64,000 nucleotides of DNA from Patescibacteria group bacterium (GTDB lineage: Bacteria; Patescibacteriota; Patescibacteriia; JAHJFT01). Numbering within the stretch: the first letter of the stretch is position 1; every line of letters begins with the position of its first letter. The stretch covers positions 457,864 through 521,863 of the forward strand of contig JAQTTB010000001.1 in assembly GCA_028710985.1 (NCBI GenBank), in the 5' to 3' direction. Below, piece after piece: positions 19,701-47,760 of the stretch. Below the pieces are notes generated by a model that was not told where the DNA came from, did not search any database, and saw only the letters and a program-made list of their open reading frames with translations. Both the position numbers and the translations under genes were made by a program.

Positions 19701-22700
19701 TTTATACCTGGGAGGGCTCGGACACCGCCGGCTATCAGCTCAAGACGTGGGTGCTCAAGGCGAGCGACAAGGACGCCGGCCCGTGTACCACGCTCGCGCC
19801 GGGCGGGACCTGTAATGATCCAGCCGTCGGCACCGCGGACTATGACGAGCGCGACTGCTCGGAAGATTTTAAAACCGACGCCAACTGCCGCGAATTTTAC
19901 AATACCGCCGGCGGAATTTTTTATCGCAATTATTCAGATACCATTATTTCCACCGATGAATGCTATCGCTACCGCAAAACCGAAGCAACCGGGGAGGCGG
20001 ATTGCGAATCAACCGGCGGCCAGTGGAGCGCGGCCGGAGAATGCATTTATCTGGGCTATCCGTCCGAGAGCCAGCGCTGCGGCGCCGAATCCGCGGGCTG
20101 CCGCGCCTACACCGGCCCGACGAGCCGCAATGTTGAGGAAGAATTTTTTGACGAATTTGAAAATAACACAACCCAGGATTGGCAGGGCGGGGCCGTGAGC
20201 ACCGAATCCGTCACGCTCGGCGGGCATTCGCTCAAAGCCGCGTCCGGGGCCGCGGTTTCCAAAACCTGGGAATTAACCGCGGGCGAAACTTATATTTTGA
20301 GTTTCTGGGCCAAGGGACAAGGCACGGTGGCCGCGCAAATTGACGGCGAGCCGCTCGGCAGCGTCGCCCTCGGTTCGGAATGGGCAAATTATCAGGTCGG
20401 GCCCCTGCTCATGAGTGAGGCGGGGATAGGTTCAGTGGTTAGCTTCAGCGGATTTGCGGTTGATTCGTATCTGGACAACATCCGGCTCACTCGCGTATCG
20501 GATCATCTTTATTTAATTCGCAACTCCTGGTATACGCCGATGGTGTGCGACATGAATAATCAGGGCGTCTACCTGCCGCGCGCCCAACTCGGTTGCCGCG
20601 CCTACACGGACAGCGAAAATCAGGAAAAATATTTTAAATCATTCGATCGCCTTTGCAGCGAAGGGGCGGTGGGCTGCGAAGCTTTTATTGATACTTACAA
20701 TTCCGCGTCAACCGCGAAACAGATATTCAATCAGGGAGAGGACGGCGCCGAAGTCACGGTGCCCGGCGACACGCTTTCATATTATGTATATGACGAGAAC
20801 ATGGCCTGCGGCGCCGACGCCAAAGGTTGCGAAGCGATGGGTCGCCCGATTTTGGATCAGGATGGTCATACCGTGCTCTCGTACGATGATGTATATCTCG
20901 TGAACGATCCGGAAAATTATTCCAACTCGCTCTGCCTCACCGAAGAAGCCTACTGCGACGAATTCAAGGGCGATACCGGAACTTATTATTTCAAACATCC
21001 GGAAGACAAAACCTGCGAATTTAAGGAAAAGGTGAAAATTGCCGGGCTGGAATATTCGGGTTGGTTCCGCACCGGCACCGAAGACCCGTGCTATGGGTCG
21101 TATCTCGGCGCCGGCAACTCGTACGGTATCTGGAAAAACGGCGACTCGGGCTATGACGCCTGGTACGGCAACTGCCCGGCCGACATGAGCACCTGCACCA
21201 AATTTACCGATCCAGCCGACACTTCGGCCGATGAGCCGCAGGGCAAATCATATTATTATTTGGATAACGACACGCTTGATACTAAGAGCTGCGCTGGTTC
21301 GGCCTCCAAAAGCGCGGGCTGCGCCTTATTTAACAGTACTTCAAAGTCAACCAAGACAGAAAATTCCTGGGCGACTTATCTCACGAGCGAGGACAATAAT
21401 TTCGCCGCTGTTGCCACAATCGATTGCCTCAAAAGCGATAGTCCGTATTGTACCAAGGTTTGCTTTGATAAAGAATTCGGCCCGGAAGCGTTTGTTCCGT
21501 ACCGGTTCGGCCATAACTGTCGCGATGCCGGCGACTGTTCGGGCTACAGGGGTTGCGGTGAGATTTCAAGTTTTGGCAGCAAATGGCGGCACTGGATTCC
21601 GGAACAGAATATTTATCAATACACCGGTTCGTGCGAGGCCGGTTCGGTTTGCGCGGCCGGCAATCCGGGCTGTACCGTCGGCGATCTTTGCGTGGATATG
21701 GCCAAAGAGCTCCTGCGCAATGATTCAAATGAATTATTGAAAGTCCGCCGCGACCGCGAATGCGGCGAGTGGCTGGCGTGCCGCAGTTCGGTTTCGGTCT
21801 GGGACAATGAAACGCAAAAATACAAAAAAATCTGCACCAGCCTCGGGCTTTGCGACGAGTTTGCCCCGGTCGGGGATTCCAGCGAGTGCGTTCATTTTAT
21901 TGAGAGCGAACACGCCGAAGACGTGCTTTCCGAAGCGCTTTACACCGCGCGCGATGTTTCCTGGGAAGGCCAGGATTATTCGGGCTACGCCATTCCGAAT
22001 TATTATTCCATTGACGAGCTTTCGCCCATTGATTTGAGCAGTATTGTCGCCGGTTCAAGCCTGCCGGATTTGCGCGTTGCTTATGTTGAAACCGGCTGCG
22101 GCGCCGGCGTGGCTACTGGCCAGACATGCGGAGACGCGAACGCGCTCGGCAACAAGGGTGTCTGCGTTGCCCAAAAATGCGTTTATGCCATCAACGGCGA
22201 AGCCCTGCCCACGGCCGGAACATCGGCGGAATTATATACGTCGCTTACCGCCGGGGAAAACAAATACCGCGTGGTCGGCCAGTCCTGCCGCGCTTATCCG
22301 GAAGAAGGCGCGCCGTTCCCCTCAAGCGTGGCCGAGTGGGAGAACGGAAAAATGACCACCATTGACCCCAACTTCAAACGCGCCAATATCTGCGAGCAGT
22401 CGATCTGGGAAGATCTGAACAGCGACGGCGTGCGCGATGAAAACGAAATCACGTATCAGGACTGCGAATGCGATTATCAAAAAGTTGAATTTGGAAACGG
22501 CGCGGTCACGAAATTTTATTCCACCAATGAAGTTAATATTCCCAAAGGCATCTGCCTCAATGGCCCGCGTTCCGGGCTTTCGTGCGTGCCGGGCGCGGAA
22601 TACGACGACACCCTGCCGGCCGATTCCGCGGATAATCAAAAAACCTGCGGCGCGATTACTTCGGGCGGCGCCTGCCAGGCGGTTGAGCGCGCCGACAAAT

Positions 22701-35325: not shown

Positions 35326-36174
35326 ATGAGTTTTGACACCCCAGCTAAAATAAAACAGGTTTTATCCAAATACAACCTTCGTCCAATCCACGGCCGGGGG
35401 CAAAATTTTTTGGCTGACAAAAATATCGTGGATAAAATTATGGCCGTCGCGGAAATCGGCAAAAAGGATTGCGTTTTGGAAATCGGACCGGGTCTCGGCA
35501 TTCTCACCGACCGGCTTGCGACGGCAAAAAGAGTTCTTTCCGTGGAAATTGACAAAAAAATTGTCGGTCTGCTCGCCTCCGAGTATGTTTGGCCCAATGT
35601 TACGGTTCTCACTTCCGACATTTTGCGCGTTTCGAACGCAGAAGTCGTAAAAATTCTCGGCTGTCCGCGTTATTCGCTGGTCGCCAATCTGCCGTACCAG
35701 ATTACTTCGGCGGTGATTGAAAAATTTTTAACCACCGAGCCCGTGCCGGACCGGATTATCATCATGGTTCAGCGTGAGGTTGCCGACCGCCTGCTCGCCT
35801 TGGATGGCTACGAGAACCTCCTGTCGCTGCTTGTGAAATTGCACGGTCGCGCCAAGAAACTTTTCAATGTTTCGCGCGGAAGTTTTTTGCCGAGCCCGAA
35901 AGTTGACTCCGCGGTTGTGGAAATTACGCCGTTCTCCGGGCCTGAATCAAAAAAAGTCCTCAATGGCGCGCGGATCGCGGCGGTTCGGAGCCTGATTCGC
36001 GCCGGTTTTCACTCGCCCCGCAAGATGGCAATTTCTAATCTGGCAAAGTACACGAATCTACCTAAAACTACGCTAATTTCGGCATTCCAGGACCTTGGGT
36101 TAGACCCCAAAATTCGCGCCGAAAAATTTGCCATTTCCGACTGGGTAAATCTGGCCCGAACTGTGAATTGTTGA
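35326..36174 (+). CDS. rsmA: 16S rRNA (adenine1518/1519-N6)-dimethyltransferase RsmA/KsgA
   Basis: GQNFLADKNIVDKIM...VLEIGPGLGILTDRLA. Confidence 0.9.
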   Translation: MSFDTPAKIKQVLSKYNLRPIHGRGQNFLADKNIVDKIMAVAEIGKKDCVLEIGPGLGILTDRLATAKRVLSVEIDKKIVGLLASEYVWPNVTVLTSDILRVSNAEVVKILGCPRYSLVANLPYQITSAVIEKFLTTEPVPDRIIIMVQREVADRLLALDGYENLLSLLVKLHGRAKKLFNVSRGSFLPSPKVDSAVVEITPFSGPESKKVLNGARIAAVRSLIRAGFHSPRKMAISNLAKYTNLPKTTLISAFQDLGLDPKIRAEKFAISDWVNLARTVNC

Positions 36175-36185
36175 TGCACCTATTT

Positions 36186-36196
36186 TGTGGTATACT
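36186..36196 (+). promoter_or_regulatory. Extended -10 promoter TGtGGTATACT for the T4SS-like operon
   Basis: TTGTGGTATACT 40 nt before ATG 36236. Confidence 0.4.
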
Positions 36197-36235
36197 AATA
36201 ATGTAAAATTTGACTAAATCTGCGACATTTTTACA

Positions 36236-38698
36236 ATGATTACCGCTTTTAAAAATAAGGTGGTAGATTTGGCGTCAAGGTGGAGGCGGACGGCTTTTGT
36301 TTTGTCCGTTTTTTTGTTTAGCGGTTTGGGAATGGCCGCCGCGCGTCCGGCATACGCGGCCGCCGAAGCGCTTGCCGACATGATTTCATATATTTTGATA
36401 AACTGGGTGATCGCCACCATCGGTAAAATCATTCTTTTGCTTTTTAATCTCGTGGTCGGCTGGCTCGCGCCGTATAACAATTTTATCGATTCCGCTGCTG
36501 TGGTTACCGGCTGGGTTCTGACGCGCGACATGGCTAATATGTTTTTTATCCTTGTGCTTCTGGCCATCGCATTCGGCACAATTTTGAAAATAGAACAGTT
36601 GAATTATCAGCGCATCCTGCCCAAGCTTTTAATTATGGCCGTGGTTATTAATTTCAGCAAAACACTCTGCGGTCTCGTGATTGATTTTGGCCAAGTGGTG
36701 ATGCTTACGTTTGTGAATGCGTTTATGTCCGCGGCCGGCGGAAATTTTCTGAACGCCCTTGGACTTACCAAGCTCATGCAGCTAAGTCAGAACACTACGC
36801 TTGATTTCGGATCGTGGGAGGTGGCCGCGGCTGCTCTTTTTGGCACCATTATGATGGGTGTGACGCTTATGGTAGTTGTGGTTTATGTCATCGTGCTCGC
36901 GTATCGTATTGTCATGCTCTGGATACTCGTGATTCTTTCGCCGCTCGCGTTTTTGGCCGGCGGTTTTCCGATCGGTAAGGCGAGCGCAGCCTATGGCCAG
37001 TGGTGGGACAATTTTGTCGGCGCCGTTCTCATCGGTCCGGTACTTGCGTTTTTCTTATGGCTCGCGCTTCTTACGGCCGGCGGCGGCACCCTGGGCCAAG
37101 ATTTTATCAATACGCAGTACACGGCCCCGACATCCGAAGAACAAATCAGCGGCAGCCTGACTGAGAATTACTTTATTACCGAAGGCGGGACCAGCGAATC
37201 AACCGTGGGATTTATCATCGCCATCGCCCTGCTTCTTGCCGGGCTTGCGGTTGCCCAGCAGGTGGGCGGCGAGCTTGGCGGCGTGGCCGGCCAGTGGGCC
37301 GGTAAAACAAAAGGATTTATGGCCGGCGCCTTGACCGGCGCGGCCGTCGGCGCAAGCAAACTCGGCGTTGGTGCGGCCCGCAAAACCGCGGGCTGGACCG
37401 ACCGCCAGCTCGGAGTCCGGGAAAAGCTCTATGGCGGAATGGCCAAGGTGCCGGGCCTAAAACAGCTTGGTTACACCCAGCTTGCTAAAACCCGCCACGA
37501 ACGCGCGCAGAAGACCGGCGAATTGGCCAAGGTTGTTTCTAGCCTCGCGCCCGCGGAAGTGGAGAATTTGCTCAAGGGTCGGGCGATGACTGCCGATCAG
37601 AAAGAACTGCAGATGCTCGGGCATAAGCAGGCGCTTAGCTCCGGGCATGCCGGCTTTCTTGCGAAACAGGGCAAGAGCAAGCCGGAAATTTTGGCTGAGC
37701 AGGCCAAACATCTGGATGTGTTTACCAGCATGGCCAAAGAACGCGGTGATGTTGAAATGATGAAATTTGCCGGCGAGTATAAAGATAAAAATCCGCACCT
37801 TATTTTGGATTCAAAAGCAAAAGCCAATGCCTATAAAGACGCTTCTTCCGAAGATAGAAAAAAATGGTCATCTGACGCGTGGCGCGATACCGAAGGCTTG
37901 GCCGCGCTTGCCGAAAAAGAACGGCAGACCCCGGGGATTATATCCGAAGTTTTGAACAAGGCAGGGGGCGAGCCATCCAAACTTTTCAATAAGTTTATGG
38001 ATGATTATCCGGCCGGAGCCGCTATGCCGGGAGCCGGCATATTCACAATGGACAAAGGCTTTCAGCCCGCGGTCTTAACCGGAGCTCAGGCTTTTGGCGC
38101 CAAAGCCGCCGGCGTGATTCTTGAAGACTTGATGAAGGCGCGTGATTCAAAACTAAATTTCATCGCCAGAGAAGGCTATAACCCGGCTACCAATGTTTTC
38201 AACCCTGATGTTTTGCGCAGTAGCATGAAGATTCAGGCCGAAGGCGGGAACGCGGAGCAGGCTTTTGGCGCGGACCGGAAAACCGGCCAGTTTATTAACG
38301 ATCAGTTTGGTGCAAGTTTTGGCGCCGCGTTATTGGAGGCGAAAGCCGATACTATCGGTTCGATTGGAGAGTTTCAAACGCTTTCCGAAGCGCAAGTCGC
38401 CGGAGGTAAATTTATACTGGGCATCGATGATCAGGCTTTAAAAGTCAAGGACGGTGATTATCGCGAAAAAGTTATTAATAATATTGATGTGGATAATTTA
38501 GTTACTGCAACCGAAGTGGCAGAGAGGGAAAATATACCCGGAGGCATGGAAAAAATTAAGAGCCTGCTCAAAGAATTTCAATCCGAGGCTCAAACCATCA
38601 GATCTTCGGGTAGTGTAAGCGACAAAGAACAGATTATCCTGGACAAGATTGACAAGATGACGAACAACGACACCCTCCGCCGGGCGATGGGTAAATAA
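36236..38698 (+). CDS. TrbL/VirB6-like polytopic membrane protein with large soluble C-terminal extension
   Basis: About 7 TM helices in the first 330 aa with a Gly/Ala-rich inter-helix pattern, then a 450-aa soluble region; first gene of the VirB4-containing operon. Confidence 0.5.
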   Translation: MITAFKNKVVDLASRWRRTAFVLSVFLFSGLGMAAARPAYAAAEALADMISYILINWVIATIGKIILLLFNLVVGWLAPYNNFIDSAAVVTGWVLTRDMANMFFILVLLAIAFGTILKIEQLNYQRILPKLLIMAVVINFSKTLCGLVIDFGQVVMLTFVNAFMSAAGGNFLNALGLTKLMQLSQNTTLDFGSWEVAAAALFGTIMMGVTLMVVVVYVIVLAYRIVMLWILVILSPLAFLAGGFPIGKASAAYGQWWDNFVGAVLIGPVLAFFLWLALLTAGGGTLGQDFINTQYTAPTSEEQISGSLTENYFITEGGTSESTVGFIIAIALLLAGLAVAQQVGGELGGVAGQWAGKTKGFMAGALTGAAVGASKLGVGAARKTAGWTDRQLGVREKLYGGMAKVPGLKQLGYTQLAKTRHERAQKTGELAKVVSSLAPAEVENLLKGRAMTADQKELQMLGHKQALSSGHAGFLAKQGKSKPEILAEQAKHLDVFTSMAKERGDVEMMKFAGEYKDKNPHLILDSKAKANAYKDASSEDRKKWSSDAWRDTEGLAALAEKERQTPGIISEVLNKAGGEPSKLFNKFMDDYPAGAAMPGAGIFTMDKGFQPAVLTGAQAFGAKAAGVILEDLMKARDSKLNFIAREGYNPATNVFNPDVLRSSMKIQAEGGNAEQAFGADRKTGQFINDQFGASFGAALLEAKADTIGSIGEFQTLSEAQVAGGKFILGIDDQALKVKDGDYREKVINNIDVDNLVTATEVAERENIPGGMEKIKSLLKEFQSEAQTIRSSGSVSDKEQIILDKIDKMTNNDTLRRAMGK

Positions 38699-38709
38699 AA
38701 GAATTTTCT

Positions 38710-40521
38710 ATGGACGCACTGACCACAACCCGCTATCTTCCGAGATCGGTAAAAACATATTTGGGTTCGGCTGAAGTGACGGATATCAATATTGATATCA
38801 AAAAAAAGTTTGATTTGCGGGAAAGGGAACTTGATATTCTCTTTGAACTCACCTGGGATATTCTGGAAGGTCGCCGCGCGCCGCGCGCCCTGGCTTACGA
38901 GCTCAAGGCGCAGATAAAATGGCAGGAAAAAAAAGCCGCTGAAGTTGCGCTGGAAATCCTTGGACGAAAACTTTTGCCCCTTTCCAATCTTATCCCCGGC
39001 ATTCCGGAAGCGATTAAAGATCTCGGCGCTGATCCGGCCAAGTATCCGCAGAAAAAAATCACGTCCGATCAGACGACCCTGCCGGTTTTTGTGGATGAGA
39101 TGATCCGCGATCTCGGCATCCAGCTCGCCGACAAATTTTTGAAACACCGGCTTGAGAATGTTGCCGAAGCAAAAATCAAAGGAGTGCGTGATGATTTTGA
39201 AACAAAAGAAAGAATGGTCCGTGGAATAAAAATCGGTGGGCTCGAGCTCGCCCCGACACAGGCTGACCAAATTATCGCCTACATCGAATCTGCGAAGAAA
39301 ACCATACAAATCGTTGACCGCCCATCCGCTCCGACAGCGGTTGGGGGAACGGCTCCAGCCGTAGCGATTCCGCTGTCAAGGATGCCGGCCGAGTCCGAAG
39401 TGCCGGAAGAAATCACGAGACATGAAACCGGAACCGCCGCGCCTTTCGCCATGCGCCCCGAGGATGTCGCTGAAATCCACGCCGAGCGGGGCCGGGAAAT
39501 CTCGGATGCCGTTTTGCCGGAGTACGAACGAGTAGATAAAGATATTATAAAAGATTCAGGATTCAGTTTTTCCGATCCGGATATGCAAAAGCGTTTTGAA
39601 AACACGGTTCGCGCGCGCGTGCGTGATGTGCGCGACGAACTGGAGACAAAAAATATACTGACCCGCGGGCCCAAAGAGGGCGGACTCGGCTTGCCTAAAG
39701 AAAAATCCGACCGCCTCATCGCTCTCATCAATCAAAAAGTCGGACCCCTTCGCCTGAAACTCGCGAAAATCGAAGAGCAAAAAAAGGCTGAACATCTCGT
39801 GAGAGAAAAACGAAATCGGGAAATCGGCCGCGAGAGGGAAGAGGAGAACTTGAATCGCCGCTACGCCAAACTTACCGGACGAATGCCGAGCTCGATGCCC
39901 AGTGAAGAAAAAAAACCGGAACGAACCCTGCCCTTAAAAGACCATATTATTAAGCCGAGCGCTCCGGTGATAAAACCGGTCGCCCAAGTTTCGGTCGTGA
40001 CAGCCGTGATTCCGCAAGAGCCGGGATTACCGATGACGATTGTGCCGGTCCCGATCGCGATCGGGACGCCGGTCCGCCCGGCATCTCGTCCGGAATCGCT
40101 AAAGCCCAAGGTTCGCGTCTCGCCGCCGAGTATTCCGGCGCAGACGTCGCAAACCGGCCGGCCGCGCGTTGAAGAAATAAAGTTTTCGCGCAGGCTGTTC
40201 GGGCCGATTGAGGAATTGCGCGAAATGAAGTTTGAAGATTTTCGCCGCCTGTCGCGCGAACCGCGGGAACGCGCCATTAAGATAAAGGACAAGATAGATC
40301 TCCTGGGCGAAGAATCATTTGAGAAAAAAATGCAGGGCATCGCCGCGTGGCAAGAGAGCCCGATTAATAAACTGTATCTGAATTTAATACAGGAAGCGTT
40401 CCAGACCGGCAAGAACATTGAGACAATTACGCGCGAACGTGAAGCCGCCGGCCGTTCGACGCTTTCATGGGACGAATTCCAGTCAATTATTGAGCTAAAT
40501 CAAAATTTAGGTAAAATTTAA
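38710..40521 (+). CDS. Hypothetical charged/helical protein (603 aa) within the T4SS-like operon
   Basis: No TM; K/E/R-rich. Confidence 0.45.
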   Translation: MDALTTTRYLPRSVKTYLGSAEVTDINIDIKKKFDLRERELDILFELTWDILEGRRAPRALAYELKAQIKWQEKKAAEVALEILGRKLLPLSNLIPGIPEAIKDLGADPAKYPQKKITSDQTTLPVFVDEMIRDLGIQLADKFLKHRLENVAEAKIKGVRDDFETKERMVRGIKIGGLELAPTQADQIIAYIESAKKTIQIVDRPSAPTAVGGTAPAVAIPLSRMPAESEVPEEITRHETGTAAPFAMRPEDVAEIHAERGREISDAVLPEYERVDKDIIKDSGFSFSDPDMQKRFENTVRARVRDVRDELETKNILTRGPKEGGLGLPKEKSDRLIALINQKVGPLRLKLAKIEEQKKAEHLVREKRNREIGREREEENLNRRYAKLTGRMPSSMPSEEKKPERTLPLKDHIIKPSAPVIKPVAQVSVVTAVIPQEPGLPMTIVPVPIAIGTPVRPASRPESLKPKVRVSPPSIPAQTSQTGRPRVEEIKFSRRLFGPIEELREMKFEDFRRLSREPRERAIKIKDKIDLLGEESFEKKMQGIAAWQESPINKLYLNLIQEAFQTGKNIETITREREAAGRSTLSWDEFQSIIELNQNLGKI

Positions 40522-40961
40522 TGCCGGAAAAATTTGTAGTGCCGCAATTCATTGACGTGGAAGATAAGATATTTGGGCCGATCACGACTCGCCAGTTTGT
40601 AATTTTGCTCGTGGATGGATTGTTCGTTTTTATCGCGTTTAAATTATTGGAGAAGATTTTATTCATTCCGGCGGCTATTTTGCTCCTCGGAGCCGGCGGC
40701 TTGCTTGCTTTTATAAAAGTGAACGGCATGCCATTTCATTTTTTTCTTCTGAACATCATTCAGACAATGAAGCGTCCGTCTCTCCGCGTTTGGGATAAAA
40801 CGCCTAGCAACACCGAACTGCGCGCGTACATCAGCAAGCCTGAAGTCAAAGCCGCGCCCGTTCCTCCCAAGAAAGAGCCATTAACAACAAGCCGCCTGTC
40901 CGAACTTTCGCTCATCGTTAATACAGGCGGTTTATACAAACCCGAAGAATATGAGCACTAA
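40521..40961 (+). CDS. PrgI/VirB3-like small membrane protein
   Basis: MPEKFVVPQFIDVEDKIFGPITTRQFVILLVDGLFVFIAF... matches the PrgI-family N-terminal pattern; sits immediately upstream of VirB4. Confidence 0.45.
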   Translation: MPEKFVVPQFIDVEDKIFGPITTRQFVILLVDGLFVFIAFKLLEKILFIPAAILLLGAGGLLAFIKVNGMPFHFFLLNIIQTMKRPSLRVWDKTPSNTELRAYISKPEVKAAPVPPKKEPLTTSRLSELSLIVNTGGLYKPEEYEH

Positions 40962-41622
40962 AAAAATTGTCAGACCCGGCCAACCAACTCAGCGTTACAT
41001 GGACATCGCAGAAATCCGCGAGGATGTGGTGATAATGAAGGACGGCACACTGCGCGCCGTTATTCTGGTCTCAAGTATCAATTTCGCGCTGAAGTCGGTG
41101 GATGAGCAGGAGGCGATTATTTCCGCCTACATGCAGCTTTTGAATTCGCTAGAACATCCTTTGCAGATTGTAATTCAGTCGCGTCGTATGAATATTGAAA
41201 AATATCTTGACGCCCTGAAGGAAGAGGAAAAAAATCAGAAAAACGATCTTTTGAGCGCGCAGATTTCCGATTATCGCAGTTTTATCAACCAGTTGGTTGA
41301 GCTTGGCGAGATCATGAGCAAGAAATTTTTTGTTACCGTGCCGTACGACCCAATGTCGGATAAGCAGAGAGGTTTTTTCTCGCGGATAAAAGAAATTTTT
41401 TCACCAGCCGTAAGTCTCAAATTGAGCGGCCAGAAATTTATTGAGCGCCGCAAGGAGTTGATGATGCGGGTGGAGCATATCATAGGCGCCCTACAGAGTA
41501 TCGGGCTCACCACCGCGCTTCTTGATACCCAGAGTTTGATTGAACTTTATTACAGTGTTTACAATCCCGAAGTTTACGAAAGCCAGAAGGTCAAGGATTT
41601 AAGCAAAATACAAATAGAATAA
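40951..41622 (+). CDS. VirB4/TraC-family ATPase, N-terminal segment encoded as a separate ORF
   Basis: QRYMDIAEIREDVVIMKDGTLRAVILVSSINFALKSVDEQEAIISAYMQLLNSL aligns by pattern with the VirB4 N-terminus (LPY...VLLEDGS...DGV.FEL); ends with a TAATAA double stop. Confidence 0.6.
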   Translation: MSTKKIVRPGQPTQRYMDIAEIREDVVIMKDGTLRAVILVSSINFALKSVDEQEAIISAYMQLLNSLEHPLQIVIQSRRMNIEKYLDALKEEEKNQKNDLLSAQISDYRSFINQLVELGEIMSKKFFVTVPYDPMSDKQRGFFSRIKEIFSPAVSLKLSGQKFIERRKELMMRVEHIIGALQSIGLTTALLDTQSLIELYYSVYNPEVYESQKVKDLSKIQIE

Positions 41623-41626
41623 TAAT

Positions 41627-43579
41627 ATGCCATTCCGACCAAAAGAAGCCGTTGCTCCTGAAGCCAAAACCGGCGCGGTTGCGCCGACCGGCCGCATCGT
41701 GCGGCGCGAGGCCGAGGCGCGCGCCGAGGCCGAGCGAGAACGCATCGTACTTGAAGAAGAGCGCATTTATCGCCGCGGTGTTGTTTCCATCCGCGACCTG
41801 ATCGCGCCGGCCGCTTTTGAAGTAAAACCGAACTATCTCCGGCTCGGCGACAGCTTTTGCCGCACGATTTTTATTGTCACTTATCCGCGCTATGTTTCGG
41901 TTGGATGGGCGACGCCGGTTATCAACTATAATCACACCCTGGATATCGCCATGTTTTTCTATCCAGTCAAGGCGCCGATAATTTTAAAACAGCTCAAGAA
42001 TAAAGTCGGCGTTCTGGAGGCCCAGATCATGGCCGATTCGGAAAAAGGCGCTCCTCGCGATCCGATTCGCGAAACCGCACTCCGCGACATTGAACAGCTT
42101 CGCGACGACCTGACGCAGGGGATTGAGCATTTTTTTCAATTCGCTTTGTACATTACGATTTACGCGAAAGATGTTACGGAACTGGATAAGATATCAACCG
42201 ATATCGAAACCATCTTCGGTTCAAAATTGATTTATTCCAAGCGCGTTCTTTATCAGTCCGAGCAGGGCTTTAATTCCACTGTGCCGCTCGCGAACGACGA
42301 GCTCATGATTACCTTCAATATGAACACCTCGCCGATTGCTTCGTCGTTCCCGTTCACTTCGGCCGAGCTTACTTCGGACAACGGCATACTCTACGGAATA
42401 AACCGCCACAACAACAGCCTGATTCTCTTTGACCGTTTCTCCATGCCGAACGCCAACATGGTTGTTTTTGCCACTTCCGGCGCCGGCAAGAGTTATGCCG
42501 TAAAACTGGAAATCTTGCGCAGCCTGATGCTTGGCACGGATGTTCTCGTCATTGATCCGGAAATGGAATACAAGCACCTTTCCGACGCGGTCGGCGGCAC
42601 CTACATCAATATTTCCCTGGCTTCGGAAAGCAAGATTAATCCGTTCGATCTGCCGCGGCCCATGGGCGAGGATATCAGCACCGAGGATATTATCCGGAGC
42701 GCCGTAATTACTCTCAAGGGTTTGCTCCGCATCATGCTCGGCAAGCTCACTACGGCCGAGGATTCGCTTTTGGATCGCGCGCTTCTTGAAACCTATGCTA
42801 AGCGCGATATTACGCCAAGTTCCGATCTTTCTACCGTCGAGCCGCCGATTATGCAGGATTTGCAGGAAGTGCTCGAGGGCATGGAAGGTACCGGCGATTT
42901 GGTTGTCCGGCTCAAGAAATTCACTGACGGCACATTTGCCGGTCTCTTGAACTCGCCGACCACGGTCACTATGAAAGCCCAGCTCGTGGTCTTCAGCGTG
43001 CGCGATCTTGAGGACGAGCTCCGTCCGATTGCTATCTATACCATCATCAACTACATTTGGAATGTCGTGCGCTCGGAGAGCAAAAAACGCATTCTCACGA
43101 TTGACGAAGCCTGGTGGCTGATGATGCACGAGGACAGCGCAAAATTTATTTTCGCCTTGGTCAAACGCTGCCGGAAATACTATCTCGGCATTACCACCAT
43201 CACGCAGGATGTTAACGATTTTTTGTCCAATCCGTACGGCCGCTCTATTGTCACTAACTCCTCAATGCAGATTCTGATGAAACAGTCGCCGGCCGCGGTT
43301 GATTTGGTGCAAAAAACTTTTCTTCTCACCGAGGGGGAGAAATATCTTCTTCTTGAGTCCGCGGTCGGAGAGGGGATTTTCTTCGCCGGCACAAAGCACG
43401 CGGCGATCAAGGTGGTTGCTTCGTATACCGAGGACCAGCTCATTACCACCGACCCGCGCCAGCTCTTGGAAATAGAAGAATCAAAAAAGCAATTCGCCGA
43501 AGAGGTGCTCGGTCAGTCCGAAGCCCTGCCTGCCGGTAGGCAGGGCGCTTCCGGGGAACCCCCAGCAATAAATATCTAA
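41627..43579 (+). CDS. VirB4/TraC-family type IV secretion ATPase (middle and ATPase domains)
   Basis: IAPAAFEVKPNYLRLGDSFCRTIFIVTYPRYVSVGW; Walker A FATSGAGKS; Walker B ILTIDEAWWLM; C-terminus carries the palindrome insert (EALPAGRQGAS). Confidence 0.8.
   Translation: MPFRPKEAVAPEAKTGAVAPTGRIVRREAEARAEAERERIVLEEERIYRRGVVSIRDLIAPAAFEVKPNYLRLGDSFCRTIFIVTYPRYVSVGWATPVINYNHTLDIAMFFYPVKAPIILKQLKNKVGVLEAQIMADSEKGAPRDPIRETALRDIEQLRDDLTQGIEHFFQFALYITIYAKDVTELDKISTDIETIFGSKLIYSKRVLYQSEQGFNSTVPLANDELMITFNMNTSPIASSFPFTSAELTSDNGILYGINRHNNSLILFDRFSMPNANMVVFATSGAGKSYAVKLEILRSLMLGTDVLVIDPEMEYKHLSDAVGGTYINISLASESKINPFDLPRPMGEDISTEDIIRSAVITLKGLLRIMLGKLTTAEDSLLDRALLETYAKRDITPSSDLSTVEPPIMQDLQEVLEGMEGTGDLVVRLKKFTDGTFAGLLNSPTTVTMKAQLVVFSVRDLEDELRPIAIYTIINYIWNVVRSESKKRILTIDEAWWLMMHEDSAKFIFALVKRCRKYYLGITTITQDVNDFLSNPYGRSIVTNSSMQILMKQSPAAVDLVQKTFLLTEGEKYLLLESAVGEGIFFAGTKHAAIKVVASYTEDQLITTDPRQLLEIEESKKQFAEEVLGQSEALPAGRQGASGEPPAINI
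43526..43545. repeat. Palindrome-family copy 3, CCTGCCTGCCGGTAGGCAGG, in-frame inside the VirB4 CDS
   Basis: Read directly; the same 24-mer is present in the clpC-like gene in the same gene-relative orientation. Confidence 0.9.
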
Positions 43580-44194
43580 ATGACAAAAACGATAAAAATT
43601 ATTTTAATCGCGCTCGCTGGGGTGATGTTGCTTGCCGGCATAATGTTTTTGATTTGGGCACTCATGACGCGGCCGGCCGTAATTTTCAAACCCGCGCCGG
43701 CTCAGCCTGCCGCCGAAACTACGGAGCCCCTGCCGACCGGCGGTTCGGTTATGGTTCCAGTGAGTACGACAACGCAAGAGGTTTCCGGAATTCCGTTTGA
43801 AGTCAGTACTTCGGCCGAAGCGGAAAAACAGGCCGCCAAAAATCTTTGCATTCTTTTCGCCGAGCGGTTCGGAAGTTTCTCGAACCAGGGAAGCTACGAA
43901 AACATCACGGATTTGTTGTCGGTCATGACGCCGTCCATGCGCGTCTGGGCCGAAAATTATGTTTCCAAGAATGCGTCCGCGGCTCCGGCTGAATACTACG
44001 GAGTAAGCACCAAGGTTGTTGCCAATACTTTTAATAGCTATGATGCGGCGCAGGGCAACGCCGTGATGACTCTCGATACCCAGCGCCGCGAAATGCGCGC
44101 TTCGGTCGAAGATCGGATTTATTATCAGGCCATCAGAATTTCGCTTAAGAAAATTGACGGCGCGTGGCTCGTCGACAGCGCATCATGGCAATAA
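43580..44194 (+). CDS. Membrane-anchored hypothetical protein
   Basis: N-terminal TM helix, 204 aa. Confidence 0.45.
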   Translation: MTKTIKIILIALAGVMLLAGIMFLIWALMTRPAVIFKPAPAQPAAETTEPLPTGGSVMVPVSTTTQEVSGIPFEVSTSAEAEKQAAKNLCILFAERFGSFSNQGSYENITDLLSVMTPSMRVWAENYVSKNASAAPAEYYGVSTKVVANTFNSYDAAQGNAVMTLDTQRREMRASVEDRIYYQAIRISLKKIDGAWLVDSASWQ

Positions 44195-44844
44195 AAGATT
44201 TTTTACTCGATTTAATATTTCCAAAGTTCTGCCTGCAGTGCGGGCGGGAAGGCACCATGCTTTGCGCCGAGTGCGTTTCGGCGATTGATCCGCAATGGGA
44301 TCCCCTTGATTTTGAAAATCAAAAGGAGGTATTAATAGGTCGTTTAATCAGCCTTGGGTACTACCGCGAAAAAATTTGGCAGCGTATTATTCAAAATCTA
44401 AAATATCAATACGTAACTGAGCTTGAAAGCGCGCTGGAAAATCTCGTCGGCCGGTTTATACAAAAATATCCTGAATCTATCGGCGTGCCCTATGATTATC
44501 TTGTTCCCGTGCCGTTGCACCGTAAAAGACTGCTTGAACGCGGATTTAATCAGGCGGAAATAATTGCCCGCTTAATTGGAAAAAATACCGGTTGGCCGCT
44601 TGAAAGCGAAAATCTATACCGAAAAAAGAACACCGCGCCGCAGGCCCAGCTCGAAGATGAAAAAAGAAAGGCGAATTTAGTCGGCGCATTCGGCGTCCGG
44701 AATCCGGAGCGGTTTGAAAATAAGAAAATTTTGCTTATTGATGATGTATATACCACGGGTTCAACTATAAAAGAATGCGCCAGTACCCTTCTCGCCGCCG
44801 GCGCGGCCGAAGTCGGAGCCTGGGTCGTCGCCCGCCGCACTTAG
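44164..44844 (+). CDS. ComF-family protein (double zinc ribbon + phosphoribosyltransferase domain)
   Basis: CLQCGREGTMLCAECV...; C-terminal LLIDDVYTTGSTIKECASTLLAAGA PRTase motif. Confidence 0.7.
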   Translation: MARRQRIMAIKDFLLDLIFPKFCLQCGREGTMLCAECVSAIDPQWDPLDFENQKEVLIGRLISLGYYREKIWQRIIQNLKYQYVTELESALENLVGRFIQKYPESIGVPYDYLVPVPLHRKRLLERGFNQAEIIARLIGKNTGWPLESENLYRKKNTAPQAQLEDEKRKANLVGAFGVRNPERFENKKILLIDDVYTTGSTIKECASTLLAAGAAEVGAWVVARRT

Positions 44845-44909
44845 CCTTTAAGCGGGTCGGATCTTGAAAAAAATGCCGATTTCTGGTAGGATAGAGGAAA
44901 TCTTTTCAG

Positions 44910-44999
44910 GGAAGGGTGGCAGAGCGGACGATTGCACCGGTCTTGAAAACCGGAGTCCCTTCACGGGGACCGTGAGTTCGAATCTCACCCCTTCCGCCA
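44910..44999 (+). tRNA. tRNA-Ser (anticodon TGA), class II, CCA encoded
   Basis: Acceptor GGAAGGG/CCCTTCC; anticodon arm CCGGT-CTTGAAA-ACCGG; long variable arm; T arm GTGAG-TTCGAAT-CTCAC. Confidence 0.85.
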
Positions 45000-45014
45000 T
45001 TCTGTAGACTATTC

Positions 45015-45110
45015 GGAGAGGTGGCCGAGAGGCTGAAGGCGGCGGTTTGCTAAACCGTTATACGTGGTTTTTGCCGCGTATCGAGGGTTCGAATCCCTCC
45101 CTCTCCGCCA
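45015..45110 (+). tRNA. tRNA-Ser (anticodon GCT), class II, CCA encoded
   Basis: Acceptor GGAGAGG/CCTCTCC; anticodon loop TTGCTAA; long variable arm; T arm GAGGG-TTCGAAT-CCCTC. Confidence 0.85.
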
Positions 45111-45136
45111 ATTTATAAAATTCAAATCCAGACAAT

Positions 45137-45610
45137 ATGCCGGAAATTACTAAAATCACCCACGAAGTGCCGGAATTTATCAAACACGAAAGATCGCTTC
45201 TTTGGTATATTGTTGCATTTCTGATTGCCGGCGGGCTGGTCACTTATGCTATTCTCAGCGGGAACTTTTTATTCGCCGTTATTGTTGTTCTCATCGGCGT
45301 GATTATTGTCTTGACTTCGTTCCGCGAACCGCGTAAGCTGAGTTTCGAGATCGATCCAATGGGAGTGGCTGTCGGAGGCAAGAGATATAAATTTACGGAT
45401 TTTAAGGATTTTTCCATCATTTACAATCCGCCGGAAACCAATACGCTGTATCTAGAATTTCGCATGCCTCTGCGCGAGCGGCTTTCGGTGCAGCTCGGTG
45501 ATATGGATCCGAACGAAGTGCGGGAATATTTAATGAATTTTTTGAAAGAAGATCTGGAACGTGAGCAGGAATCACTGAGTGATATCTTAAGCCGTTTATT
45601 GAAATTTTAA
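45137..45610 (+). CDS. Hypothetical membrane protein (2 TM) between tRNA genes
   Basis: 157-aa ORF. Confidence 0.4.
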   Translation: MPEITKITHEVPEFIKHERSLLWYIVAFLIAGGLVTYAILSGNFLFAVIVVLIGVIIVLTSFREPRKLSFEIDPMGVAVGGKRYKFTDFKDFSIIYNPPETNTLYLEFRMPLRERLSVQLGDMDPNEVREYLMNFLKEDLEREQESLSDILSRLLKF

Positions 45611-45699: not shown

Positions 45700-47760
45700 A
45701 TGTACAGTTTGGATGCACCAATTAAAGAATTGGCGCGCGCTGGAAGAGTAAGGGAGGGGCAGATGGCGCGTTTGGGTATTGAGACCGTTCAGGATCTCAT
45801 TTTTTATTTTCCAAAAAGATACGAAGATCTGTCGCGGTTACAAAAAATCGACGAACTCGCGATTGGCGAAAACGCGACCATTCATGCCCGGCTTGAGCAG
45901 ATAAAAAGTTTTCGCAGTCCGAGAAAACACATGATAATTACTGAGGCCCTGGTCGCCGACGAGACCGGCAAGCTGCGTATCGTTTGGTTTAACCAAGCCC
46001 ATCTTTCCAGGGCCATGAAGCCCGGTTCTTTTTATTATTTTTCTGGCAAGGTTGACGACAAATATCATTTTGAAATGCTGAGTCCGGCTTGGGAGCTCGC
46101 TCATGCCGGCGGGGAGCAGATTCACACGAACCGCATCGTGCCGCTTTACGCGCTCACCGAGGGGGTGACGCAGAAACAGCTCCGCTGGCTCATTAAGCTC
46201 GCCCTGCCGTCGGTTGAGGGTTTGGATGAGTGGTTTCCGGAATACATTACCGAGCGGGAATCGTTTCCTTCAATTCGCGACGCGCTTCGCGTGATACATT
46301 TTCCGGATGATCTGGATTCCGCGGCCGCGGCTTTAAAACGTTTTAAATTTGGCGAACTTTTTTTGCTTCAGCTCTTGGCAGCCAAAAACCGCCAGGGTTT
46401 AAAAGAGCTGCCGGCTCCGCGCATCACGCTCCGGCCCGAAGTATTAAACCGCTCTTTCGAGCGCCTGCCGTTTAAATTAACCAGTGATCAACAGGTCTCG
46501 CTACAGGAGATTCTCCTTGATCTCTCTGGCGAACATCCCATGAACCGCCTTCTTGAGGGGGATGTGGGTTCGGGCAAGACGATTGTTACCGCCCTGGCCG
46601 CCGGACAGGTGGTGGCGAATGGTTATCAGGTTGTTCTCATGGCTCCGACATCAATTCTCGCGCGCCAGCATTATGAAAGTTTGCTTAAATATTTTAAAAC
46701 GAGCGGCATTTCCGTCGGCCTCTTAACGCGCACCGACGCGTCAGTCGGCGGCGAGAGCGTCAAGGCCCGCGAATTCGTGGACGCGCTCTCGGTCGGCAGC
46801 CTCAACTTTGTCATCGGCACGCATGCCATTCTTGAGGAAAAAATAAAATTTAAAAATCTCGGGCTCGCGATAATCGATGAACAGCACCGTTTTGGCGTGC
46901 GCCAGCGCCAGGCGCTTCGCGAGCGCAATCAGGGTGAATACTGGCCTCATCTCCTTTCTCTCACCGCGACGCCGATTCCGCGCTCGCTCGCACTTACTCT
47001 TTACGGCGATCTCAACCTCTCCATCATCCAGACCATGCCGCCGGGCCGCAAGCCGGTGATCACCGACATCGTGAGTGAAACCGGCCGGGCTTCGGCGTAC
47101 GGCTTTATTAAAGAAGAACTCAAACGCGGCCGCCAGGCTTTCGTGGTCTGTCCGCTGATTGAAGAGTCGGACAAGCTCGGCGTCAAGTCCGTAACCGCGG
47201 AATACGAAAAATTAATTCAGGTTTTTCCGGGATTCCGCATCGGCCTGCTTCACGGCAAGCAGAAACTCGCGGACAAAGACGCCATCATGGCGGATTTTAA
47301 ATCCGGCGGCATTCATCTCCTCGTCTCCACTACCGTAATTGAGGTCGGAATCGATATTCCGAACGCCAGCATTATTATCATCGAAGGCGCCGAGCGTTTC
47401 GGCCTGGCCCAGCTCCATCAATTGCGCGGCCGCGTCGGCCGGAGCGGGGAACAGGGTTATTGCATGCTTTTTACGGAAAGCGCGAATCAAAAAACCCTGG
47501 ACCGGCTCAATGTCTTCCGCGGCTCAACTAACGGCTTTGAGCTCGCCGAGGCGGACCTTGAAATCCGCGGCCCGGGCGATATCTACGGCTGGGAGCAGTC
47601 CGGCTTTCCGCGCCTGCGCTTCGCGAGCTTCTCGGACAAGGGCCTGATCAAGAAAGCGCAAAAATACGCCCAGGAAATTCTGGACTCTTCCGGTCTCAAG
47701 AAATTCCCCGCGCTCGCCAAGCGGCTTCAACAGTTTGAGCGCAGCATTCATTTTGAATAA
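45700..47760 (+). CDS. recG: ATP-dependent DNA helicase RecG
   Basis: Wedge/OB N-terminus, GDVGSGKTIVTALAA, DEQHRFGV, QLHQLRGRVGR. Confidence 0.9.
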   Translation: MYSLDAPIKELARAGRVREGQMARLGIETVQDLIFYFPKRYEDLSRLQKIDELAIGENATIHARLEQIKSFRSPRKHMIITEALVADETGKLRIVWFNQAHLSRAMKPGSFYYFSGKVDDKYHFEMLSPAWELAHAGGEQIHTNRIVPLYALTEGVTQKQLRWLIKLALPSVEGLDEWFPEYITERESFPSIRDALRVIHFPDDLDSAAAALKRFKFGELFLLQLLAAKNRQGLKELPAPRITLRPEVLNRSFERLPFKLTSDQQVSLQEILLDLSGEHPMNRLLEGDVGSGKTIVTALAAGQVVANGYQVVLMAPTSILARQHYESLLKYFKTSGISVGLLTRTDASVGGESVKAREFVDALSVGSLNFVIGTHAILEEKIKFKNLGLAIIDEQHRFGVRQRQALRERNQGEYWPHLLSLTATPIPRSLALTLYGDLNLSIIQTMPPGRKPVITDIVSETGRASAYGFIKEELKRGRQAFVVCPLIEESDKLGVKSVTAEYEKLIQVFPGFRIGLLHGKQKLADKDAIMADFKSGGIHLLVSTTVIEVGIDIPNASIIIIEGAERFGLAQLHQLRGRVGRSGEQGYCMLFTESANQKTLDRLNVFRGSTNGFELAEADLEIRGPGDIYGWEQSGFPRLRFASFSDKGLIKKAQKYAQEILDSSGLKKFPALAKRLQQFERSIHFE

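What the first reader, a model, noticed from the sequence alone, without database searches (positions are those of the whole stretch)
40951..43579. VirB4 encoded as two adjacent ORFs (223 aa + 650 aa) in different frames, separated by a TAATAA double stop and 4 nt
ORF 40951-41622 matches the VirB4 N-terminal region (…DIAEIREDVVIMKDGTLRAVILVSSINFALKS…). ORF 41627-43579 begins with its own ATG and a charged low-complexity linker (REAEARAEAERERIVLEEERIYRR), then continues with the canonical VirB4 middle region and the Walker A/B ATPase. Together they total 873 aa, the usual VirB4 length. A clean double stop and a new ATG argue for a genuine split (two-subunit) VirB4 rather than a random frameshift. 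A pseudogene or assembly error cannot be excluded.
Basis: partly seen in the sequence, partly recalled or inferred. Interest (0 to 1): 0.55.

Follow-up and report, generated by a model that had tools for sequence, protein, structure and literature searches.

The report
Conserved two-gene VirB4 (TrsD plus ATPase)

Summary
ORF1 (40951-41622, 223 aa) and ORF2 (41627-43579, 650 aa) lie in different frames at the junction gaa-TAA-TAA-T-ATG.

The split is genuine and old:
- All 31 related genome loci have a stop at the homologous place and a separate ATG for ORF2. Spacers range from 1 to 511 nt, with all three stop codons and both same-frame and different-frame arrangements.
- The best 120 homologues of each half are separate proteins: 196-251 aa for ORF1, 601-672 aa for ORF2.
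- None of the best 150 cluster representatives of ORF1 exceeds 443 aa.
- Both halves are under purifying selection (dN/dS 0.006-0.17 in the closest pairs).

ORF1 aligns end to end with TrsD of plasmid pSK41, where TrsD/TrsE are split at the same point.

The arrangement is published. Quinonero-Coronel et al. 2025 (PMC12102498) report TrsD, remotely homologous to the VirB4 N-terminus, as the most abundant T4SS component of Patescibacteria, usually next to virB4. They also describe the comF/recG neighbourhood seen here.

Verdict: real, ordinary, already known. How the two proteins work together is inferred, not shown.

The parts
36236..38698 (+). 820-aa protein with about 7 predicted transmembrane segments and a large soluble C-terminal part; candidate VirB6-like channel subunit and first gene of the tightly packed cluster
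   Evidence: ORF. Hydropathy scan (7 segments in aa 45-340). No Pfam hit. The VirB6-like role is inferred only from topology and position.
38710..40521 (+). 603-aa soluble protein of unknown family, lying between the membrane protein and PrgI
   Evidence: Searches found no family. One search found no transmembrane segment.
40521..40961 (+). PrgI family protein (VirB3-like), with 2 transmembrane segments; its end overlaps the start of ORF1 by 11 nt
   Evidence: Pfam PF12666 PrgI, E 2.8e-11, 44.2 bits against cut-off 27. Transmembrane segments. A homologue lies upstream of ORF1 in 30 of 31 related loci; the exception, L009, starts within ORF1.
40951..41622 (+). ORF1: TrsD-like protein of 223 aa, soluble; the detached first part of the VirB4 N-terminal domain
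41620..41629 (+). Gene junction TAA TAA T ATG: ORF1 stop, a second in-frame stop, 1 nt, then the ORF2 start (+1 frame)
   Evidence: In relatives the spacing is 1-8 nt in 21 of 31 loci and 17 to 511 nt in the rest.
41627..43579 (+). ORF2: shortened VirB4 ATPase of 650 aa. It has a conserved M-P/A-F tip, a variable charged linker (aa about 5-45), the rest of the N-terminal domain, and the Walker A/B C-terminal domain.
   Evidence: NF045971 CD1110: E 1.1e-97, 328.2 bits against cut-off 325, aa 42-590 matching profile 175-730. Pfam P-loop_TraG, AAA_10, DUF87. 4AG5 E 4.5e-47 over aa 248-607. 113 of 120 homologues start M-[AP]-[FIL].
43580..44194 (+). 204-aa protein with one N-terminal transmembrane segment; starts on the base after the ORF2 stop; unknown family
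44164..44844 (+). ComF-like phosphoribosyltransferase with a double zinc ribbon
   Evidence: Pfam Pribosyltran E 5.4e-8. DZR_2 E 9.5e-5 at 22.6 bits, below its cut-off of 27. The comF/recG neighbourhood matches that reported for class ABY1.
45700..47760 (+). RecG helicase, a context marker of the ABY1-type T4SS neighbourhood
   Evidence: Pfam RecG_wedge, DEAD, Helicase_C, RecG_dom3_C. PMC12102498 section 14.

Best explanation
This is the chromosomal type IV secretion locus of a Patescibacteria (CPR) bacterium. The synteny is of the ABY1-class type. Its VirB4 motor is normally made as two polypeptides.

ORF1 is a TrsD-family protein. It corresponds to roughly the first 200 residues of a full-length VirB4, that is, the first part of the N-terminal domain. 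ORF2 is the rest of VirB4: the second part of the N-terminal domain plus the Walker A/B ATPase domain.

Shown here:
- The two genes are separate in every relative examined.
- Both are under purifying selection.
- They cover complementary, colinear parts of full-length VirB4.
- ORF1 folds like part of TrwK/VirB4.
- The break lies at the same place as the TrsD/TrsE break of staphylococcal plasmid pSK41.

Inferred, not shown:
- The genes PrgI (VirB3-like), ORF1 and ORF2 are co-translated from one tightly packed operon (11-nt overlap, then a 4-nt gap, with no Shine-Dalgarno motifs). This would give matched amounts of the three proteins.
- ORF1 binds ORF2 non-covalently to rebuild a complete VirB4.
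- ORF1 supplies at least part of the surface that the membrane protein PrgI/VirB3 wraps around, as VirB3 does with the N-terminal domain of VirB4 in the R388 structure. This would dock the ATPase hexamer at the membrane.
For: Split conserved:
- In 31 of 31 related loci (39-71% identity to ORF1, including a Saccharibacteria-labelled contig) ORF1 ends in a stop at the homologous position and ORF2 has its own ATG.
- Spacers range from 1 to 511 nt. TAA, TAG and TGA all occur. The two ORFs share a frame in 12 of 31 loci.
- The best 120 homologues of ORF1 are 196-251 aa and those of ORF2 are 601-672 aa.
- An exhaustive search of 1.84 billion cluster representatives found 2240 relatives of ORF1. The best 150, down to 34% identity, are 117-443 aa and none is fused.
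- 113 of 120 ORF2 homologues begin M-[AP]-[FIL], so the start codon itself is conserved.

Selection (dN/dS for ORF1 / ORF2):
- 0.009 / 0.006 for L007-L009.
- 0.17 / 0.10 for L027-L029.
- 0.11 / 0.11 for L018-L019.
- 0.08 / 0.07 for L004-L010.
- Between the window and its relatives, synonymous sites are saturated while pN is 0.18-0.44 for ORF1.

Complementarity:
- ORF1 matches CD1110 profile positions 3-119 and ORF2 matches 175-730.
- ORF2 aa 56-584 equal residues 216-762 of a fused 799-aa enterococcal VirB4. The ORF1 family profile maps weakly, but in order, to residues 25-86 and 143-196 of that same protein (domain E about 0.01 and 0.3).
- There is no homology between the ORF1 and ORF2 families, so ORF1 is not a spare copy of something ORF2 already has.

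Same break in known systems:
- pSK41 trsD (227 aa) plus TrsE (672 aa). ORF2 aa 57 aligns with TrsE aa 36. ORF1 aligns with TrsD residues 30-218.
- A Pontibacillus megaplasmid has 274 aa plus 621 aa.

Literature:
- PMC12102498 describes TrsD as remotely homologous to the VirB4 N-terminus. It reports 2,272 homologues in Patescibacteria, 1,664 of them next to virB4, and an essential one in Ca. Southlakia epibionticum. It also reports ABY1 loci carrying comF and recG.
- In R388, VirB3 wraps around the VirB4 N-terminal domain, residues 15-400 (PMC9259494).
Against: - Physical assembly of ORF1 with ORF2 or with PrgI was not tested and cannot be tested with these tools.
- ORF1 scores far below the curated cut-off of the NCBIfam TrsD/TraD model (25.6 against 200 bits).
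- ORF1 matches single fused VirB4 sequences only weakly (E 0.01 by hhalign). The homology rests on profiles and on the predicted fold.
- The fold-search outputs do not give aligned residue ranges. That ORF1 corresponds to the N-terminal part of TrwK specifically rests on the sequence profiles.
- The ORF2 model was too poor to use (pLDDT 46).
- Ten of 31 loci have spacers of 17-511 nt, so tight translational coupling is not universal.
- According to the 2025 paper, TrsD has no experimentally assigned function.
Confidence: 0.88

Rival explanations
1. A VirB4 pseudogene, or a sequencing or assembly error: a single indel broke one 873-aa gene into two ORFs in this genome only.
For: The two ORFs are adjacent, in different frames and only 4 nt apart. 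That is what a +1 frameshift would look like if this window were seen on its own.
Against: All 31 related loci are split at the same protein position, with unrelated junction sequences and spacers of 1-511 nt. No fused form appears among 240 close homologues or 150 cluster representatives. dN/dS is far below 1 in both halves. The ORF2 N-terminal tip M-[AP]-[FIL] is conserved. ORF1 is listed on 3 contigs, from NCBI and Logan sources; the identical ORF2 is listed on 1.
Confidence: 0.01
2. Programmed recoding: a +1 frameshift or stop-codon readthrough at the junction makes a single fused VirB4, alongside or instead of the two separate products.
For: The gap is short in most loci (1-8 nt in 21 of 31). 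In 12 of 31 loci the two ORFs share a frame, so readthrough of a single stop would fuse them wherever the spacer is short.
Against: The window has two consecutive in-frame stops and would need a +1 shift. The frame relation, stop codon, spacer length and spacer sequence are not conserved. Ten loci have spacers of 17-511 nt. ORF2 keeps a conserved initiator Met and N-terminal tip. No conserved slippery motif is visible in the junction sequences.
Confidence: 0.02
3. ORF1 is an independent accessory factor that only descends from a VirB4 N-terminal piece. It might be a chaperone, a regulator or a substrate adaptor. On this reading it works on its own rather than as a structural subunit completing ORF2.
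Against: ORF2 lacks the region that ORF1 supplies, and the profile coverage is complementary and colinear. The break point is the same in pSK41 and in a Bacillota megaplasmid. The gene order PrgI-ORF1-ORF2 is invariant, and the genes are packed tightly in most of the 31 loci. ORF1 evolves under constraint of the same order as ORF2.
Confidence: 0.09

Closest known systems
TrsD + TrsE of staphylococcal conjugative plasmids pSK41/pGO1 (the pGO1 sub-class of MPF-FATA type IV secretion systems)
   Same: The layout is the same: a soluble protein of about 225 aa directly upstream of a VirB4-like ATPase of about 650-670 aa, and the break lies at the homologous point. ORF2 aa 57 aligns with TrsE aa 36. 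The ORF1 family aligns with TrsD residues 30-218 of 227.
   Different: Sequence identity is only about 22-24%. ORF1 falls far below the NCBIfam TrsD/TraD cut-off (25.6 against 200 bits). pSK41 is a conjugative plasmid with relaxases. The window is a chromosomal region of housekeeping genes, and no relaxase was seen among the neighbours scanned.
Chromosomal T4SS of Patescibacteria (Quinonero-Coronel et al. 2025, PMC12102498; essential in Ca. Southlakia epibionticum according to Wang et al. 2023, as cited there)
   Same: The components are the same: PrgI/VirB3, TrsD and VirB4, plus a polytopic membrane protein. The neighbourhood is the same as reported for class ABY1 (comF, recG; ksgA also lies upstream). 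The closest homologues are all from Patescibacteria.
   Different: Nothing substantive differs. This window is one more instance. This analysis adds three explicit demonstrations: the two proteins are complementary, the break point is shared with pSK41, and both genes are under purifying selection.
Single-chain VirB4 ATPases (PrgJ/CD1110 family of enterococcal and clostridial elements; TrwK of R388; T. pseudethanolicus VirB4, PDB 4AG5)
   Same: The ATPase core and domain order are the same. ORF2 aa 56-584 equal residues 216-762 of a 799-aa enterococcal VirB4. ORF2 aa 248-607 equal 4AG5. The ORF1 model resembles TrwK.
   Different: Those proteins are one polypeptide. Here the first roughly 200 residues are a separate gene product, and ORF2 begins with a variable charged linker absent from the fused forms.
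VirB3-VirB4 fusions in some MPF-T systems (mentioned in Guglielmini et al. 2014, PMC4027160)
   Same: They show that the module VirB3 / VirB4 N-terminus / VirB4 ATPase tolerates different divisions into polypeptides.
   Different: The direction is opposite: fusion there, fission here. Here the module is three separate proteins.

Membership tests
VirB4-like conjugal transfer ATPase, CD1110 family (NCBIfam NF045971) | Whole-protein score at or above the curated cut-off | tested here: met
   ORF2 scores 328.2 bits against a cut-off of 325, E 1.1e-97. This is only just above the cut-off, because the N-terminal 174 profile positions are absent from ORF2.
VirB4-like conjugal transfer ATPase, CD1110 family (NCBIfam NF045971) | Walker A and Walker B motifs, and a C-terminal domain homologous to a solved VirB4 | tested here: met
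   SGAGKS at aa 284-289 and IDEAW at aa 492-496; G285, G287, K288, S289 and D493-W496 are invariant across the family alignments. 4AG5 E 4.5e-47 over aa 248-607.
VirB4-like conjugal transfer ATPase, CD1110 family (NCBIfam NF045971) | One polypeptide containing the whole N-terminal domain | tested here: not met
   ORF2 covers profile positions 175-730 only. Positions 3-119 are matched by ORF1, a separate gene.
TrsD/TraD family conjugative transfer protein (NCBIfam NF041427; the 'TrsD' of CONJScan/MPF-FATA) | Score at or above the curated NCBIfam cut-off | tested here: not met
   25.6 bits against a cut-off of 200, E 9e-6. ORF1 is a distant relative, not a member of this narrowly defined subfamily.
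TrsD/TraD family conjugative transfer protein (NCBIfam NF041427; the 'TrsD' of CONJScan/MPF-FATA) | End-to-end homology with TrsD of pSK41/pGO1 | tested here: met
   hhalign of the ORF1 family against pSK41 TrsD: probability 83%, E 8.7e-6, 181 columns, 10-208 against 30-218 of 227. hmmsearch E 4.3e-10.
TrsD/TraD family conjugative transfer protein (NCBIfam NF041427; the 'TrsD' of CONJScan/MPF-FATA) | Stand-alone soluble protein of about 200-230 aa encoded directly upstream of the VirB4-like ATPase | tested here: met
   223 aa with no transmembrane segment. A 4-nt gap to ORF2. The order is the same in 31 of 31 loci.
TrsD/TraD family conjugative transfer protein (NCBIfam NF041427; the 'TrsD' of CONJScan/MPF-FATA) | Detected by the CONJScan TrsD profile used in PMC12102498 | not testable with these tools
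   That profile is not in the libraries offered. The database's precomputed Pfam hit for the identical protein is PF26593. The local Pfam copy did not report it.
Patescibacteria chromosomal T4SS (PMC12102498) | virB4 accompanied by PrgI/VirB3 and TrsD; closest relatives in Patescibacteria | tested here: met
   PrgI, Pfam E 2.8e-11. TrsD-like ORF1. All named close homologues and most locus titles are Patescibacteria, Uhrbacteria or Magasanikbacteria. No phylogenetic tree was built.
Patescibacteria chromosomal T4SS (PMC12102498) | Chromosomal context without a relaxase; ABY1-type neighbours comF and recG | tested here: met
   ComF-like at 44164-44844 and RecG at 45700-47760. GroEL, RF2 and KsgA lie upstream. 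No relaxase family appeared among the 16 neighbouring proteins scanned between 16.6 kb and 47.8 kb. The rest of the window was not scanned.
Frameshifted pseudogene | Orthologues with an intact single ORF, and relaxed selection on the broken copy | tested here: not met
   No fused orthologue in 31 loci, 240 homologues or 150 representatives. dN/dS 0.006-0.17 in close pairs.
Programmed ribosomal frameshift or readthrough gene | Conserved frame relation and a conserved recoding signal at the junction | tested here: not met
   Frame relation, stop codon, spacer length (1-511 nt) and spacer sequence all vary.

The most novel reading that the evidence does not exclude
The most novel reading my evidence leaves open is that the two-gene form is functional rather than a neutral fission. 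On this reading the detached N-terminal module (TrsD) is a separately dosed or exchangeable adaptor that controls when the VirB4 hexamer docks on PrgI/VirB3. It could even represent the ancestral state, from which single-chain VirB4 arose by fusing a TrsD-like module to a HerA/FtsK-type ATPase. Two observations would fit such a docking arrangement: the conserved M-[AP]-[FIL] tip of ORF2 followed by a variable charged linker, and the TrsD variants with long C-terminal extensions.
Probability: 0.1. Interest if true: 0.5.

Novelty: already known. Interest (0 to 1): 0.15.

Why it matters
For genome annotation, this junction should not be flagged as a frameshift, a pseudogene or an assembly error. 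ORF1 ("hypothetical protein" in the public record) can be named a TrsD-like VirB4 N-terminal subunit. For biology, the T4SS of Patescibacteria is reported to be essential for the epibiotic lifestyle, and TrsD is its most frequently detected component yet has no assigned function. This analysis shows that TrsD and the short VirB4 are complementary pieces of one VirB4, broken at the same point as in pSK41. That yields a concrete, testable proposal: TrsD is the part of the motor that meets PrgI/VirB3. This refines published knowledge; it is not a new kind of system.

Tried and rejected
- **Sequence search of the ORF1 family profile against PDB chains.** No hit even at E 10. Only the fold comparison revealed TrwK.
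- **AF2 model of ORF2.** The second gave pLDDT 46.3 from a shallow alignment (72-86% identity) and was not used for fold search.
- **Foldseek against afdb50.** The library was not available, so I could not show the ORF1 fold at the N-terminus of many fused VirB4 models.
- **ORF1 as a paralogue of the ORF2 N-terminal region (internal duplication).** Considered because of a weak BLASTP hit to TrsE 63-140 (E 0.028) and a similar order of secondary-structure elements. Profile-profile comparison found nothing, so this stays unsupported.
- **Promoter and terminator scan of 36000-45200.** Counts were within chance and there was no convincing signal between ORF1 and ORF2.
- **Search for Shine-Dalgarno motifs.** None lies before any of the seven genes of the cluster, so coupling cannot be argued from ribosome-binding sites.
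- **Pseudogene, assembly error and programmed recoding.** Rejected on the comparative evidence.
- **Third homologous-protein search.** Not spent, because the answer no longer depended on it.
Full report
**1. The observation**

The window holds ORF1 at 40951-41622 (ATG, 223 aa) and ORF2 at 41627-43579 (ATG, 650 aa), in different frames. The junction reads GAA TAA TAA T ATG CCA. The four bases between the ORF1 stop and the ATG are TAAT, so they include the second in-frame TAA. Only one base follows the TAATAA. The quoted peptides and the charged stretch at ORF2 aa 27-50 are present.

**2. What the two ORFs are**

ORF2 is a VirB4-type ATPase.
- It scores 328.2 bits (cut-off 325, E 1.1e-97) against NCBIfam NF045971, the CD1110 family of VirB4-like conjugal transfer ATPases. 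ORF2 aa 42-590 match profile positions 175-730 of 752.
- It has Pfam P-loop_TraG, AAA_10 and DUF87.
- ORF2 aa 248-607 match the solved VirB4 C-terminal domain 4AG5 at E 4.5e-47.

ORF1 has no hit in the local Pfam copy, but it matches the N-terminal ends of three VirB4 profiles:
- CD1110 positions 3-119, E 2.7e-6.
- VirB4_plasma positions 104-231, E 2.2e-11.
- VirB4_CagE positions 19-137, E 3.5e-4.

It also matches the stand-alone TrsD/TraD family model (E 9e-6, far below that model's cut-off).

The ORF1 and ORF2 families show no similarity to each other in a profile-profile comparison. So ORF1 supplies something ORF2 lacks; it does not duplicate it.

Against a fused 799-aa enterococcal VirB4 that follows a PrgI gene, ORF2 aa 56-584 align with residues 216-762. 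The ORF1 profile maps weakly, but in order, to residues 25-86 and 143-196 (domain E about 0.01 and 0.3). The two ORFs are therefore complementary and colinear pieces of one VirB4, broken near residue 205-215 of the fused form.

**3. Is the split an accident of this genome?**

No.
- The 120 best homologues of ORF1 (59-100% identity) are all 196-251 aa. The 120 best of ORF2 are all 601-672 aa.
- An exhaustive HMMER pass over 1.84 billion cluster representatives found 2240 relatives of ORF1. The best 150, down to 34% identity, are 117-443 aa, and none carries the ATPase.
- I fetched 31 related genome loci (39-71% identity to ORF1). Most are labelled Patescibacteria and one Saccharibacteria.
- Thirty of them show the order PrgI, ORF1 homologue, ORF2 homologue. 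The remaining one, L009, starts within ORF1.
- In all 31, ORF1 ends at a stop at the homologous position and ORF2 has its own ATG.
- The junctions are otherwise unrelated. TAA, TAG and TGA all occur. The two ORFs share a frame in 12 loci. The spacer is 1-8 nt in 21 loci, 17 nt in one, and 32-511 nt in nine.
- 113 of 120 ORF2 homologues begin M-[AP]-[FIL], so the start itself is conserved. A linker of variable length follows, ahead of the conserved LEEERIY motif.

Nei-Gojobori estimates show strong constraint on both genes in the least diverged pairs:

| Pair | ORF1 dN/dS | ORF2 dN/dS |
|---|---|---|
| L007/L009 | 0.009 | 0.006 |
| L027/L029 | 0.17 | 0.10 |
| L018/L019 | 0.11 | 0.11 |
| L004/L010 | 0.08 | 0.07 |

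Between the window and its relatives, synonymous sites are saturated (pS 0.64-0.96) while pN is 0.18-0.44 for ORF1 and 0.11-0.32 for ORF2.

These results rule out a pseudogene or an assembly error. They also leave no room for a conserved frameshift or readthrough signal.

**4. Surroundings**

The genes from 36236 to 44844 are packed head to tail on the + strand:
- An 820-aa protein with about seven transmembrane segments. It is VirB6-like by topology only; there is no family hit.
- A 603-aa soluble protein of unknown family.
- PrgI (VirB3-like; Pfam E 2.8e-11; two transmembrane segments), overlapping ORF1 by 11 nt.
- ORF1, then ORF2.
- A 204-aa protein with a single transmembrane segment, starting on the base after the ORF2 stop.
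- A ComF-like phosphoribosyltransferase.

Three tRNA genes and recG follow. GroEL, RF2, an epimerase and KsgA lie upstream. No Shine-Dalgarno-like motif precedes any of these genes. The promoter and terminator scan shows nothing beyond chance between ORF1 and ORF2.

The identical proteins are in NCBI as a hypothetical protein (PHW53_02405) and an "ATP-binding protein" of a Patescibacteria MAG, on a 744,538-bp contig.

**5. How it most likely works**

Shown: two separately encoded, conserved, complementary parts of VirB4, always next to PrgI.

Inferred:
- The three genes are co-translated from one operon.
- ORF1 associates non-covalently with ORF2 to complete the VirB4 N-terminal domain.
- ORF1 provides at least part of the surface bound by PrgI/VirB3. 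In the R388 structure the VirB4 N-terminal domain is residues 15-400 and VirB3 wraps around it (PMC9259494). ORF1 corresponds to roughly the first half of that domain.

I could not model the complex, and the fold searches do not report aligned ranges. The docking role is therefore a proposal. The main rival, that ORF1 acts as an independent accessory factor, keeps about 9% of my belief.

**6. Comparison with what is known**

The arrangement is not new.
- In pSK41, trsD (227 aa, annotated "TrsD/TraD family conjugative transfer protein") lies 14 nt upstream of the 672-aa VirB4-like TrsE.
- The ORF1 family aligns with TrsD almost end to end: columns 10-208 against residues 30-218, probability 83%, E 8.7e-6. 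ORF2 aa 57 aligns with TrsE aa 36. The break point is therefore the same.
- A Pontibacillus megaplasmid has the same two-gene form, 274 + 621 aa.

Quinonero-Coronel et al. 2025 (PMC12102498) surveyed 3,035 Patescibacteria genomes. They report:
- TrsD is present in only the pGO1 sub-class of MPF-FATA.
- It has no assigned function.
- The homologue in Ca. Southlakia epibionticum is listed as essential.
- In class ABY1 the T4SS loci commonly include comF, recG and radA.

The window has comF and recG, so it fits that description fully. A 2025 review also treats the Patescibacteria T4SS as established (PMC12857230).

Membership is as follows:
- ORF2 passes the VirB4 CD1110 cut-off, but it is not a full single-chain VirB4.
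- ORF1 is a distant TrsD homologue. It fails the narrow NCBIfam TrsD/TraD cut-off (25.6 against 200 bits) but meets the architectural and homology criteria.

**7. Verdict**

The alternatives it left open are excluded. The feature is an ordinary member of an already described arrangement.

This analysis adds four things:
- The explicit demonstration of complementarity.
- The break point shared with pSK41.
- The selection estimates.
- The conserved N-terminal tip of the short VirB4.

Interest is low, at 0.15. The most novel reading still open is that the detached module is a regulated docking adaptor, or the ancestral state of VirB4. I give that about 10%.

Noticed in passing
L008:5288-9187: The VirB4 homologue of this locus is a continuous 1300-aa ORF. 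It carries an in-frame insert of about 650 aa at the Walker A/P-loop, with Intein_splicing (E 2.1e-12) and LAGLIDADG_3 (E 6.1e-17) domains. This is an intein with a homing endonuclease inside the T4SS ATPase.
   Followed up: partly
L004, L006, L008, L010, L012, L013, L015, L020, L022 (between the ORF1 stop and the ORF2 start): Nine loci have 32-511 nt between the two genes. Several spacers consist of short repeated motifs, for example 'aaatcccaaatctcaaatcccaaatcccaaat' in L010 and 'ctttttag' repeats in L013. Their origin is unknown.
   Followed up: no
L010:5008-5110 and L015:5652-5775: An ATG sits 1-5 nt after the ORF1 stop, as in most loci, but it is out of frame with the ORF2 body. This suggests a local frameshift or assembly error inside the low-complexity linker, or a replaced linker.
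   Followed up: no
window 41627-41765 (ORF2 aa 1-46) and its homologues: 113 of 120 ORF2 homologues begin M-[AP]-[FIL]. A charged linker of variable length follows, and the LEEERIY motif starts anywhere from residue 14 to 47, mostly 36-45. A conserved tip on a flexible tether may be a docking peptide.
   Followed up: partly
window 36200-44200: No Shine-Dalgarno-like motif lies within 20 nt upstream of any of the seven genes of the cluster. The starts are preceded by A/T-rich sequence, and the genes overlap or abut.
   Followed up: partly
window 40951-41622 versus 41815-42230 (ORF2 aa 64-200): ORF1 and the N-terminal region of ORF2 have a similar order of strands and helices in their models. 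ORF1 aa 50-127 gives a weak BLASTP match to pSK41 TrsE 63-140 (E 0.028). Profile-profile comparison finds nothing. A very old internal duplication in the VirB4 N-terminal domain is possible but unsupported.
   Followed up: partly
cluster representatives P0241-P0390: 37 of the 150 best representatives of the ORF1 family are 300-443 aa, mostly through extra C-terminal sequence. None exceeds 500 aa. The extensions were not examined.
   Followed up: no
window 16616-25582: A 2988-aa ORF on the + strand. Its only Pfam signal is a weak carbohydrate-binding CBM_4_9 match. It is probably a giant surface protein of the kind common in CPR genomes.
   Followed up: no
L003, L004, L008, L010, L013, L016, L018, L019, L021, L022, L024, L027, L029-L031 (record titles): The public record titles call these contigs 'uncultured Gammaproteobacteria bacterium', 'Candidatus Methylomirabilis' or 'Candidatus Binatia'. 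They nevertheless carry the Patescibacteria-type PrgI-TrsD-VirB4 locus at 41-63% identity to ORF1. This is likely mislabelling or mis-binning.
   Followed up: no
plasmid hits H1-H25; L032: The ORF1-like proteins found on plasmids are almost all on large 'non-mobilizable' replicons of Bacillota (33 of 35 records; Clostridium, Cytobacillus, Paenibacillus, Bacillus, Pontibacillus). In Pontibacillus the pair is followed by a DD-metalloendopeptidase. This hints at non-conjugative T4SS-like loci outside Patescibacteria.
   Followed up: partly
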